This document shows, piece by piece, positions 9,312 to 26,781 of a DNA stretch of 64,000 nucleotides (position 1 is its first letter; every line of letters begins with the position of its first letter). The notes under the pieces are model-generated. The model was not told the DNA's origin, made no database searches, and saw nothing but the letters and a program-made list of their open reading frames with translations. The stretch is from a virus. Taxonomy: Duplodnaviria > Caudoviricetes. The position numbers and the translations under genes are program-made. The stretch covers positions 1 through 64,000 of the IMG/VR virus record IMGVR_UViG_3300031760_000034. One strand, written 5' to 3'.

Positions 9312-9329
9312 AAATCCTGCAATAGGCGA

Positions 9330-9756
9330 GAGCCTTGAGCCAGTACCTATACATGGGAGATATGTGAAGACTCCAGAATATGGCATTGGGCCAGTGTGCA
9401 GTCACTCCCCGATATAGATCTGAATTGACAGGTCCACCGAGAGCCGGAATATGGAGAGAGAAACTGTTAAGGAAAGTATAGATAAGAAATATATCAATGT
9501 CAATAGCCTTGAGCACGCGACAGGATACATATATTATTAGCTATATGGAACTTAATAAGCCTCTCTTATGTTATGGGAGCCAGTGTGGCAGGTAAGCAGT
9601 GAGCCAACGCTGTTAAAACTATTGGACCATTAGATCAAATCACTATCGTATTGAGCCTTGAGCCTGTGCAACTAAAAGGATTTCTCGGGTGTGAGATATA
9701 GACACTGTACGATATATCAAGAATGTGAACTATATACTATGTGTGAGCCTTGAGCC
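9330..9756 (+). repeat. Dispersed GAGCCTTGAGCC repeats in a non-coding tract
   Basis: Full copies at 9330, 9653 and 9745; partial at 9505; extra GAGCC near 9441, 9577 and 9601. Confidence 0.75.
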
Positions 9757-9897
9757 GGAGCATGGTCAATGTAGGAAAATTTAAGGTGAGGTTATAAGTG
9801 ATTTGAGGCGTCGTATACCCTTGAGTGGACCAGCTATCCATGAGAGGTTAGAAAACGCGTCAGAAAGCCTGTAAATAGCCTTAAATCGAACGTTTCG

Positions 9898-10183
9898 GCT
9901 GATCCCCGATATGTTCAGCAAAGAAATCTTAGCGGTCTGAGGTAAGTTGTTCGGACGAGGGTTCGAATCCCTCCGGCTCCACCCCAATCTCTTGATGACA
10001 ACACGGAAAGACGTGTATATCCCTCTCCGGAGGGAAACTGGGGTCGATAGGATTTAGACGGGCAATGGAAGTAAAGGCATTAACGCTTTGATATAACAAT
10101 AACTGGCAATTATAATATTGCAGACTACACGGGCCTCAAGGAGGCAGCGTGAAGTCGGTGGGACAGACTACCAAAGTGTCTGT
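9898..10183 (+). ncRNA. ssrA: Circularly permuted (two-piece) tmRNA
   Basis: The 3' acceptor part (GGAC-GAGGG-TTCGAAT-CCCTC-CGGCTCC-A, 9953-9981) lies upstream of the 5' part (GGGGTCG...TTAGACGGG from 10040). The two pair with a G3-U70 wobble. Tag ORF 10105-10152 = GNYNIADYTGLKEAA*. Outer boundaries are approximate. Confidence 0.85.
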
Positions 10184-10187
10184 TTTA

Positions 10188-10236
10188 GAGTGAGAATCGA
10201 GAAGGGATAAGGGGTTCGAATCCCCATCTCACTCCA
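10188..10236 (+). other. tRNA-like mini-helix (acceptor + T arm only)
   Basis: GAGTGAGA/TCTCACTC stem with GGGG-TTCGAAT-CCCC T arm; no D or anticodon arm. Confidence 0.6.
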
Positions 10237-10296
10237 ATAGTGGTAGAGGCTTACTGGGGCTCGCCTGACACCACGAGAAAAACAAACGCCCCATAT

Positions 10297-10370
10297 GGAC
10301 TTATAGCTCAGTTGGTTAGAGCAGCAGACTCATAATCTGAAGGTCCCAGGTTCAAGCCCTGGTTGGTCCA
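10297..10370 (+). tRNA. tRNA with CAT anticodon (Ile2 or Met)
   Basis: Full cloverleaf: GGACTTA/TTGGTCC, D arm GCTC/GAGC, loop CT-CAT-AA (10331-10333), T arm CCAGG-TTCAAGC-CCTGG. Confidence 0.9.
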
Positions 10371-10385
10371 CAAATGTCCTTCAAT

Positions 10386-10456
10386 TGGATCATGGTGTAA
10401 TGGTAACACTACAGGTTTTGGTTCTGTCATTCGAGGTTCGAATCCTCGTGGTCCAA
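10386..10456 (+). tRNA. tRNA-Gln(TTG)
   Basis: TGGATCA/TGGTCCA acceptor (U1-A72 type), ACAGG-TT-TTG-GT-TCTGT anticodon arm, CGAGG-TTCGAAT-CCTCG T arm. Confidence 0.92.
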
Positions 10457-10460
10457 CAAT

Positions 10461-26556: not shown

Positions 26557-26781
26557 ATGAAAGGAAAGAAAGCATTAAAAACTTATTCCTACAAAGAATT
26601 TAAAGAACTTCTTGGTACTCTTGGGTTCTTTGAGCATCATAAGAATAGTACACATATGGTATTTGCAAATGCAAAGCGTCGATATGTTACTGTACCTTTT
26701 TCTAATAAGAAAGAGATAAATCCTATGATGACTACAGTAACTCTACAGAGGATTAAGAATCATCAATGTAGGACATTGTAA
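26557..26781 (+). CDS. hicA: HicA-like dsRBD-fold RNase
   Basis: ELLGTLGF..HHKNSTHMVF...RYVTVP...KEI pattern; 74 aa; no HicB neighbour. Confidence 0.7.
   Translation: MKGKKALKTYSYKEFKELLGTLGFFEHHKNSTHMVFANAKRRYVTVPFSNKKEINPMMTTVTLQRIKNHQCRTL

What the first reader, a model, noticed from the sequence alone, without database searches (positions are those of the whole stretch)
9898..10183. Circularly permuted two-piece tmRNA in a Bacteroidales phage, with a novel tag
Seen: the T arm and acceptor 3' strand (CGGCTCC-A, to 9981) come first. A 58-nt spacer with two hairpins follows, then the 5' strand GGGGTCG (10040). They pair as a 7-bp stem with the alanine identity wobble G3-U70, and GGGCAAT pairs with GTTGTTC as P2a. 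The resume context ATAACT|GGC leads into GNYNIADYTGLKEAA-TGA. Established: permuted tmRNAs are known from Alphaproteobacteria, some Betaproteobacteria and cyanobacteria, while Bacteroidota host tmRNAs are one-piece to my knowledge (tag like GETNYALAA). Inference: an independent permutation in a phage. It may rescue ribosomes stalled at TAG during the code switch, or on HicA-cut mRNA, and its KEAA tag could redirect proteolysis. No SmpB is seen in the window.
Basis: partly seen in the sequence, partly recalled or inferred. Interest (0 to 1): 0.86.

Follow-up and report, generated by a model that had tools for sequence, protein, structure and literature searches.

The report
Two-piece tmRNA gene, crAss-like phage
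This rumen crAss-like phage carries a real, shrunken, back-to-front (two-piece) gene for tmRNA, the RNA that frees stalled ribosomes; its whole phage family shares the gene and public records already label it, but its unusual build has not been described in any paper I could find.

Summary
ARAGORN calls a permuted tmRNA at 9892-10243. Rfam's permuted-tmRNA model scores 61.5 bits (threshold 47).

In 23 relatives, 97% of the proposed base pairs hold and 22 of 46 pairs show compensatory changes. The alanine wobble G3-U70 never varies. The 15-codon tag frame has no indel or stop in 89 unique relatives and varies most at third codon positions.

The gene is a minimal form of about 210 nt. It has no pseudoknot 1 and only one pseudoknot after the tag. 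The spacer is dispensable. A tRNA or tRNA-like helix lies 2-8 nt after the pseudoknot and probably marks the 3' cut.

No SmpB is encoded, so host factors are needed.

The find is not new as a catalogue entry. RefSeq annotates it in cr272_1 and cr273_1, and a 2022 supplementary table lists ten crAss phages as "Permuted". I found it across three Suoliviridae subfamilies. This scan has also reported it on many other genomes.

It fails the alpha, beta and cyano lineage models and shares leader, glycine resume codon and D-loop signature with Bacteroidota-type tmRNAs. A separate origin is therefore likely but unproven. The proposed links to TAG recoding and HicA are untested.

The parts
9926..9953 (+). 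5' extension of the acceptor piece: the 3'-side strands of helix P2. P2d is 9926-9928, P2c 9931-9934, P2b 9935-9938 and P2a 9946-9953.
   Evidence: These strands pair with 10059-10092. P2a has 7 of 8 pairs with changes on both sides, P2b has 2 of 4 and P2c has 2 of 4. ARAGORN draws P2a as 8 bp.
9954..9973 (+). GAC linker and T arm. The stem is 9957-9961 with 9969-9973 and the loop is TTCGAAT.
   Evidence: ARAGORN and Rfam both place it here. Four of 5 stem pairs covary.
9974..9983 (+). Acceptor 3' strand (9974-9980), discriminator A73 (9981) and CC (9982-9983). The final A of CCA is not encoded.
   Evidence: It pairs with 10040-10046. Four of 7 pairs covary, and U70 and A73 are invariant in 23 of 23. 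Relatives read ACT, ACG or ACC after the stem, so CCA must be added or completed by a host enzyme (inference).
9984..10039 (+). Intervening spacer with two local hairpins, presumably discarded.
   Evidence: It is not conserved and is 15 to about 310 nt long in relatives. The hairpins are recovered by the fold.
10040..10058 (+). Start of the coding piece: acceptor 5' strand (10040-10046, with G3 at 10042) and the D-loop analogue (10047-10058).
   Evidence: ARAGORN 5' tRNA domain. In relatives with odd T loops the D-loop GG changes to GC or GT, matching T-loop position 3.
10059..10092 (+). 5'-side strands of helix P2. P2a is 10059-10066, P2b 10075-10078, P2c 10084-10087 and P2d 10090-10092.
   Evidence: Covariation with 9926-9953.
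10093..10152 (+). A/U-rich leader (10093-10104), tag reading frame (10105-10149, product GNYNIADYTGLKEAA) and TGA stop (10150-10152). Hairpin H5 lies inside the frame at 10133-10145.
   Evidence: ARAGORN resume site and tag. In 89 unique relatives there are no indels and no internal stops, and entropy by codon position is 0.28, 0.17 and 0.57. There is no room for pseudoknot 1, and the Rfam model's hairpin positions are deleted here.
10157..10183 (+). Single H-type pseudoknot after the tag. S1 is 10157-10160 with 10169-10172. S2 is 10163-10168 with 10178-10183.
   Evidence: S2 covaries in 3 of 6 pairs. S1 is invariant in the close clade and shifted in L057. The motif recurs in other Suoliviridae.
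10188..10236 (+). tRNA-like minihelix (acceptor stem plus T arm, no D or anticodon arm). It is the probable RNase P signal that sets the 3' end of the coding piece.
   Evidence: Read from the sequence, with a weak tRNA-like Rfam hit. A tRNA or tRNA-like element starts 2-8 nt after the pseudoknot in about 27 of 31 relatives, and in several it is a true tRNA-Met.
10297..10457 (+). tRNA-Met (CAT, 10297-10371) and tRNA-Gln (TTG, 10386-10457), co-oriented with the tmRNA.
   Evidence: ARAGORN and Rfam. The same tmRNA then tRNA-Met order holds in cr272_1 and cr273_1.

Best explanation
It is a functional, minimised two-piece tmRNA (ssrA) of a Suoliviridae crAss-like phage.

**Processing.** The gene is transcribed on the + strand together with tRNAs (inferred). 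In the precursor, 9974-9980 pairs with 10040-10046 to form a tRNA-like domain. Host RNase P would cut before G10040 and again before the tRNA-like helix at 10188. That frees a coding piece of about 145 nt. The acceptor piece of about 60-65 nt would be trimmed to A9981-CC and completed to CCA by host enzymes. The spacer would be lost.

**Assembly.** The two RNAs stay together through the acceptor stem and the four-part P2 helix (shown by covariation).

**Action.** Host AlaRS would charge the RNA through G3-U70 and A73. Host SmpB and EF-Tu would deliver it to ribosomes stalled on broken mRNA (inferred). Translation would resume at GGC 10105, add the 15-residue tag and stop at TGA.

**Likely benefit.** The phage keeps ribosomes free while infection degrades mRNA. 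The tag ending EAA, instead of the host's LAA, may weaken or redirect proteolysis (speculative).
For: - **Detection.** Two independent detectors agree. RF04321 is above threshold here and in cr124_1, cr50_1 and cr10_1.
- **Structure.** 97.3% of cells pair, 22 of 46 pairs are compensatory, and 0 of 500 shuffles reach this. Slid controls give 37-45%.
- **Alanine identity.** G3-U70 and A73 are invariant in 23 of 23.
- **Tertiary pair.** The D-loop/T-loop pair covaries as G-C, C-G and U-A.
- **Tag frame.** 89 of 89 unique relatives have 15 codons with no indel or stop. Entropy by codon position is 0.28, 0.17 and 0.57. There are 36 distinct but conservative peptides. The six relatives fished with a tag-independent pattern keep the same ending and the same TGA or TAA stops.
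- **Distribution.** The gene is found in 27 IMG/VR contigs and 106 metagenome contigs, and in three Suoliviridae subfamilies with the same build.
- **3' end.** A tRNA or tRNA-like element directly follows the pseudoknot in about 27 of 31 relatives.
Against: - No expression, processing, charging or tagging data exist. The phages are uncultured.
- No SmpB is encoded, so function depends on compatibility with host SmpB, which is untested.
- Pseudoknot 1, which matters in E. coli tmRNA, is absent.
- The antepenultimate residue is E, not a hydrophobic residue, so the tag may not be a degron.
- The 5' end of the acceptor piece is undefined. No sigma-70-like promoter lies upstream.
- The single-sequence minimum-energy fold does not reproduce the long-range pairs.
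Confidence: 0.8

Rival explanations
1. The RNA is a decoy. It binds host SmpB, AlaRS or ribosomes to block or tune host trans-translation, for example as counter-defence, and the tag is not used as a degron or is not translated.
For: A CDS-less tRNA-like form from mycobacteriophage DS6A inhibits the endogenous tmRNA in E. coli (PMC11915505). The phage has no SmpB of its own. Pseudoknot 1 is missing, and the tag end differs from the host's GETNYALAA.
Against: The tag frame shows a clear protein-coding signature: variation is highest at the third codon position, and there are no indels or stops in 89 unique copies. The leader and resume codon match Bacteroidota-type tmRNAs. The alanine identity elements are invariant.
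Confidence: 0.1
2. The two-piece gene was captured ready-made from one of the three known permuted bacterial lineages (alpha, beta, cyano). It did not arise by a separate permutation in or near the phage lineage.
For: Marine phages do carry host-lineage two-piece tmRNAs (PMC9004378). The generic permuted model RF04321 matches. Identity over the first 40 nt is about the same to the RF04321 consensus (66%) as to Bacteroidota-type genes (64% mean, 71% best).
Against: The lineage models all fail and match only the tRNA-like core: alpha 21.8 bits (threshold 50), beta 35.4 (84), cyano 34.6 (70). The resume codon is Gly GGC, as in Bacteroidota-type tags, not Ala. The commonest 8-nt leader, AATTAACT, is the same in both sets. 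The D loop lacks the usual C before GAC in 70 of 78 phage copies and 17 of 17 Bacteroidota-type copies. The hosts of crAss-like phages are Bacteroidales (prior knowledge).
Confidence: 0.2
3. It is a decaying relic, or only a set of tRNA-shaped processing signals that punctuate the operon, with no trans-translation role.
For: The same operon holds several non-decoding tRNA-like elements (earlier notes seen; 10188-10236 here).
Against: The whole architecture, the tag frame and the alanine identity are conserved across three subfamilies and about 90 unique sequences. Even intron-invaded copies keep exons that rebuild an intact T arm.
Confidence: 0.03

Closest known systems
tmRNA genes annotated in RefSeq crAss-like phages cr272_1 and cr273_1 (NC_055903, NC_055904; Suoliviridae, Oafivirinae, Buhlduvirus), and listed as 'Permuted' in Table S1 of PMC9004378
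   Same: They share the gene order, the position before tRNA-Met, the architecture and a 15-residue tag that differs at five positions. The tag region is 79% identical in DNA.
   Different: The window has K where they have Q at the fourth residue from the end. It has a shorter spacer and a stripped-down minihelix where cr273_1 has a fuller tRNA-like element.
Permuted tmRNAs of other Suoliviridae: cr124_1, cr131_1, cr50_1, cr10_1 and cr115_1
   Same: They have the same two-piece build, G3-U70, GGC resume codon, a tag starting GN with a DYT-like core, and the same downstream pseudoknot motif.
   Different: Their tags are 12-14 residues and end in VA, GA, AVA or IAA rather than EAA. In cr50_1 and cr10_1 the spacer holds a tRNA-like arm.
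Two-piece tmRNAs of Alphaproteobacteria, Betaproteobacteria and Cyanobacteria (Rfam RF01849, RF01850, RF01851; merged model RF04321)
   Same: The permuted gene order is the same. The tRNA-like domain is closed by a long P2 helix, and the pieces are presumably released by tRNA-processing enzymes (PMC11915505).
   Different: The phage gene falls below all three lineage thresholds. It lacks pseudoknot 1, has one pseudoknot after the tag, is about 210 nt in all, and resumes at Gly rather than Ala.
One-piece Bacteroidota-type tmRNA (tags GENNYALAA and GETNYALAA; the native Bacteroides tag is given in bioRxiv 10.1101/2025.03.18.644028)
   Same: Both use the GGC resume codon, the same commonest leader and a D loop without the usual C. 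The first tag codons are similar.
   Different: It is one piece of about 395-400 nt. The distance from G1 to the resume codon is 94-97 nt, against a median of 65 nt in the phage family (65 nt in the window). It has pseudoknot 1 and its tag ends in LAA.
One-piece tmRNA of crAss-like phage cr106_1 (Steigviridae, NC_055871)
   Same: It is a crAss-like phage tmRNA, and its 9 nt before the resume codon are the same as in the window.
   Different: It is in standard order, 304 nt long, with the 8-residue tag DNTYRVAA. Any relationship to the Suoliviridae gene is unresolved.

Membership tests
tmRNA, permuted (two-piece) gene form (Rfam RF04321) | Score at or above the curated threshold of the family model | tested here: met
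   61.5 bits against a threshold of 47, over the full model length.
tmRNA, permuted (two-piece) gene form (Rfam RF04321) | Permuted order: the T arm and acceptor 3' strand lie upstream of the acceptor 5' strand, and the two form a 7-bp stem | tested here: met
   ARAGORN calls it 'Permuted'. Four of the 7 acceptor pairs covary.
tmRNA, permuted (two-piece) gene form (Rfam RF04321) | Alanine identity: the G3-U70 wobble and discriminator A73 | tested here: met
   Both are invariant in 23 of 23 relatives and present in five more distant Suoliviridae.
tmRNA, permuted (two-piece) gene form (Rfam RF04321) | P2 helix joining the two pieces | tested here: met
   P2a to P2d comprise 19 pairs, 11 of them with changes on both sides.
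tmRNA, permuted (two-piece) gene form (Rfam RF04321) | Translated tag frame with a resume codon after an A/U-rich leader, ending in Ala-Ala and a stop | tested here: met
   ARAGORN finds the resume site and tag. The coding signature holds in 89 unique copies.
tmRNA, permuted (two-piece) gene form (Rfam RF04321) | Pseudoknot 1 between P2 and the tag frame | tested here: not met
   Only 12 nt separate P2d from the resume codon. The model's hairpin columns are deleted. The distance from G1 to the resume codon is 65 nt, against 94-97 nt in Bacteroidota-type genes. PK1 is typical of tmRNA but not universal, so I still file the gene as tmRNA.
tmRNA, permuted (two-piece) gene form (Rfam RF04321) | Cleavage into two RNAs, alanylation, SmpB binding and tagging of stalled peptides | not testable with these tools
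   No transcript or biochemical data are available. No SmpB gene is present in the phage.
alpha, beta or cyano two-piece lineages (RF01849, RF01850, RF01851) | Score at or above each lineage model's threshold, including the lineage-specific parts | tested here: not met
   Scores are 21.8 (threshold 50), 35.4 (84) and 34.6 (70) bits. Only the tRNA-like core aligns.
Descent from Bacteroidota-type one-piece tmRNA | Shared derived characters and phylogenetic nesting | tested here: inconclusive
   The leader, GGC resume codon and D-loop signature are shared. Percent identity does not separate the candidates. No tree against the full database could be built.

The most novel reading that the evidence does not exclude
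Suoliviridae phages carry a fourth, independently permuted lineage of two-piece tmRNA. On this reading it derives from a Bacteroidota-type gene, is stripped to about 210 nt without pseudoknot 1, and is cut out wholly by tRNA-processing signals. Its non-LAA tag uncouples ribosome rescue from the host's aggressive SsrA proteolysis, or redirects it. The phage would thereby take over trans-translation during infection.
Probability: 0.3. Interest if true: 0.65.

Novelty: new variant of a known kind. Interest (0 to 1): 0.42.

Why it matters
crAss-like phages are among the most abundant gut and rumen viruses. A whole family of them keeps its own ribosome-rescue RNA but no SmpB.

This would be the smallest tag-encoding two-piece tmRNA build I am aware of (from memory, not checked here). 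If it works, it shows what is dispensable in trans-translation: pseudoknot 1, three of the four pseudoknots, and a contiguous gene.

A separate origin would add a fourth case of the same gene permutation. The tag differs from the host degron and could show how a virus edits host protein quality control.

As a catalogue entry it is ordinary. Standard tools find it and public records already label it.

Tried and rejected
- **Promoter upstream of the acceptor piece.** No sigma-70-like site lies there. The motif at 9872-9904 is unique in the window. The early-cassette repeat motif is different. The 5' end stays undefined.
- **Single-sequence fold of 9918-10187.** The z-score is -4.27, but the minimum-energy fold is not the tmRNA fold. 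It served only to confirm the local hairpins.
- **Host genomes.** A genome-contig scan with the tag-end pattern gave only 8 hits, all in records titled as non-Bacteroidota organisms. I judged them chance matches but did not inspect them.
- **Exact published Bacteroides tag DNA.** It gave no hit in viral contigs. A degenerate pattern then gave 31 contigs with one-piece genes. Their Bacteroidota assignment rests on the tag, not on taxonomy.
- **Pairwise identity for origin.** It does not discriminate.
- **Stop-codon usage.** 'Never TAG' is partly an artefact, because my first fishing pattern forced TRA. Only the 12 independently found relatives count.
- **L005.** It has the same T arm and acceptor as the window but is a one-piece gene followed by a terminator-like hairpin and T run. 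It is probably a host-type gene and not informative.
- **Intron ORF of L013.** Pfam found nothing. PHROGs found an endonuclease.

Full report
**Observation**

- T arm at 9957-9973.
- Acceptor 3' strand at 9974-9980, then A9981 and CC.
- A 56-nt spacer at 9984-10039 with two hairpins.
- Acceptor 5' strand at 10040-10046.
- P2a at 10059-10066, paired with 9946-9953.
- Resume codon GGC at 10105, 15 codons, and TGA at 10150.

ARAGORN calls a permuted tmRNA at 9892-10243 with the same tag and draws the same tRNA-like domain. Rfam RF04321 (tmRNA_permuted) scores 61.5 bits against a threshold of 47. The window is the first 64 kb of a 75-kb IMG/VR virus record judged 74% complete.

**Relatives**

I collected relatives in five ways.
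- BLAST found the pig-gut crAss-like phages cr272_1 and cr273_1, where the locus is annotated "transfer-messenger RNA, SsrA" and is followed by tRNA-Met.
- The neighbouring sigma-like factor brought four IMG/VR relatives.
- A pattern from the tag end brought 27 IMG/VR contigs, many of about 100 kb.
- A pattern from helix P2, independent of the tag, added six more.
- A metagenome scan gave 106 contigs.

ARAGORN sees a permuted tmRNA in most of those I checked.

**Structure**

I aligned 23 intact copies (A3) and wrote the structure in window coordinates.
- 97.3% of cells form a standard pair, against 37-45% with slid partners.
- 22 of 46 pairs change on both sides.
- 0 of 500 shuffles reach any of the five measures.
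- The acceptor stem, T stem, P2a, P2b, P2c and pseudoknot stem 2 all covary.
- The G3-U70 pair is U-G in 23 of 23.

In relatives with unusual T loops, the D-loop GG becomes GC or GT, matching position 3 of the T loop. This looks like covariation of the tertiary 19-56 pair.

The spacer is unconserved and ranges from 15 to about 310 nt.

**Tag**

I chose 90 unique family members without regard to reading frame. Of these, 89 are real.
- All 89 keep a 15-codon frame with no indel and no internal stop. The resume codon is GGC in 88 and GAC in one.
- Mean entropy by codon position is 0.28, 0.17 and 0.57.
- There are 36 distinct peptides. They follow a conservative pattern: they start with G then N, D or K, have a DYT core, and end in L, then K or Q, then EAA.

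This is a protein-coding signature, so the tag is very probably translated.

One caveat applies. My first fishing pattern fixed the last codons and forced TGA or TAA. The 12 relatives found by other routes show the same ending and the same stops.

**Architecture**

Only 12 nt lie between P2d and the resume codon. The Rfam alignment deletes the model's hairpin there. The distance from G1 to the resume codon is 65 nt, against 94-97 nt in Bacteroidota-type one-piece genes. Pseudoknot 1 is therefore absent.

One H-type pseudoknot follows the stop (10157-10183). Two to eight nt after it, about 27 of 31 relatives have a tRNA or a tRNA-like helix. In the window this is the minihelix at 10188-10236.

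I infer that RNase P cuts at 10040 and at 10188 to define the coding piece. The mature RNA would total about 210 nt.

No SmpB gene is present in this record, in four 100%-complete relatives or in cr273_1.

**What is already known**

Two-piece tmRNAs in phages are published (PMC9004378). That paper's Table S1 lists crAss phages cr115_1, cr114_1, cr10_1, cr50_1, cr273_1, cr272_1, cr131_1, cr130_1, cr125_1 and cr124_1 as "Permuted", and cr106_1 as "linear".

I checked five of these. All have RF04321 hits and ARAGORN permuted calls. Their tags are related and their build is the same. They span Oafivirinae, Boorivirinae and Uncouvirinae. The gene therefore looks ancestral to Suoliviridae.

Full-text searches found no paper that discusses it. 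The 2025 tmRNA database paper counts 79 phage sequences and treats the permuted and intron forms as separate classes.

This scan has reported the same gene family on many other genomes. Those notes agree with what I found independently.

**Origin**

The lineage-specific models fail: alpha 21.8 bits (threshold 50), beta 35.4 (84), cyano 34.6 (70). Each matches only the tRNA-like core.

For comparison I used seventeen unique one-piece genes with GENNYALAA-type tags, taken from the 31 contigs. They share three things with the phage family:
- the GGC resume codon;
- the commonest 8-nt leader;
- a D loop without the usual C before GAC (17 of 17, against 70 of 78 in the phage family).

GETNYALAA is the native Bacteroides tag.

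Percent identity does not discriminate between candidate sources. I rate a separate, Bacteroidota-derived permutation as likely but not shown.

**Function**

Conservation points to a working tmRNA that relies on host AlaRS, SmpB, RNase P and the CCA-adding enzyme.

By established knowledge of trans-translation, tmRNA-SmpB acts on ribosomes whose mRNA channel is empty.

The late genes do read TAG as sense. For example, the 5,285-codon frame contains 54 such codons.

A HicA-like ORF exists at 26590-26727, but it scores just below the Pfam cut-off.

An ending in EAA rather than LAA should weaken ClpX-type recognition. This rests on my memory of E. coli work and is untested here.

Noticed in passing
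L012 (- strand), L013, L024; probably also L053, L059 and L065: In these relatives the acceptor piece of the permuted tmRNA is split in or just after the T loop by 0.73-0.85 kb. This stretch contains a group I intron (RF00028, 65.9-86.8 bits). The boundaries obey the rule that the exon ends in U and the intron ends in G, and two different subsites are used. The L013 intron carries an antisense 209-aa endonuclease ORF (phrog_3322, E = 2e-23). The tmRNA database paper treats permuted and intron forms as separate classes. Earlier scan notes report the same combination.
   Followed up: partly
L026, L052, L082, L122, L137 and others: A subset of relatives replaces the canonical T loop TTCGAAT with AGGCATA, AGACATA or RGCAGTA. 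For the first two, the D-loop GG becomes GC or GT, which keeps a 19-56 pair. ARAGORN misses some of these copies.
   Followed up: partly
window 10188-10236: This is a tRNA-like minihelix with acceptor stem GAGTGAG/CTCACTC. The same acceptor sequence is kept in many relatives while the inner arms vary.
   Followed up: partly
L173 (cr50_1) and L174 (cr10_1), inside the tmRNA spacer: The intervening spacer of these Boorivirinae tmRNA genes contains a tRNA-like T arm with flanking stem.
   Followed up: no
L178 1501-1804 (cr106_1, NC_055871, Steigviridae): This crAss-like phage of another family has a compact one-piece tmRNA of 304 nt (RF00023, 74.3 bits). Its tag is DNTYRVAA and it sits right after two tRNAs.
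   Followed up: partly
window 9872-9904: A motif upstream of the tmRNA is shared with L008, L024 and L025. It contains a 4-bp hairpin with a 3-nt loop and is unique within the window. It may be a promoter or a processing signal.
   Followed up: partly
window 9312-9900: About 600 nt upstream of the tmRNA have no + strand ORF of 60 aa or more. Their content was not examined.
   Followed up: no
L012 5366-5568 (-) and L024 1565-1618 (+): L012 has a second group I intron hit (63.3 bits) about 0.65 kb downstream of its tmRNA tag frame. L024 has a sub-threshold twister-P1 ribozyme hit (43.4 bits, threshold 67.2).
   Followed up: no
window 26590-26727: A HicA-toxin-like ORF scores 26.5 bits, just under the Pfam cut-off of 27.
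   Followed up: no
window 30044-59640 (- strand): The late genes are open only if TAG is read as a sense codon. There are 9 to 54 such codons per frame, including a 5,285-codon frame.
   Followed up: no
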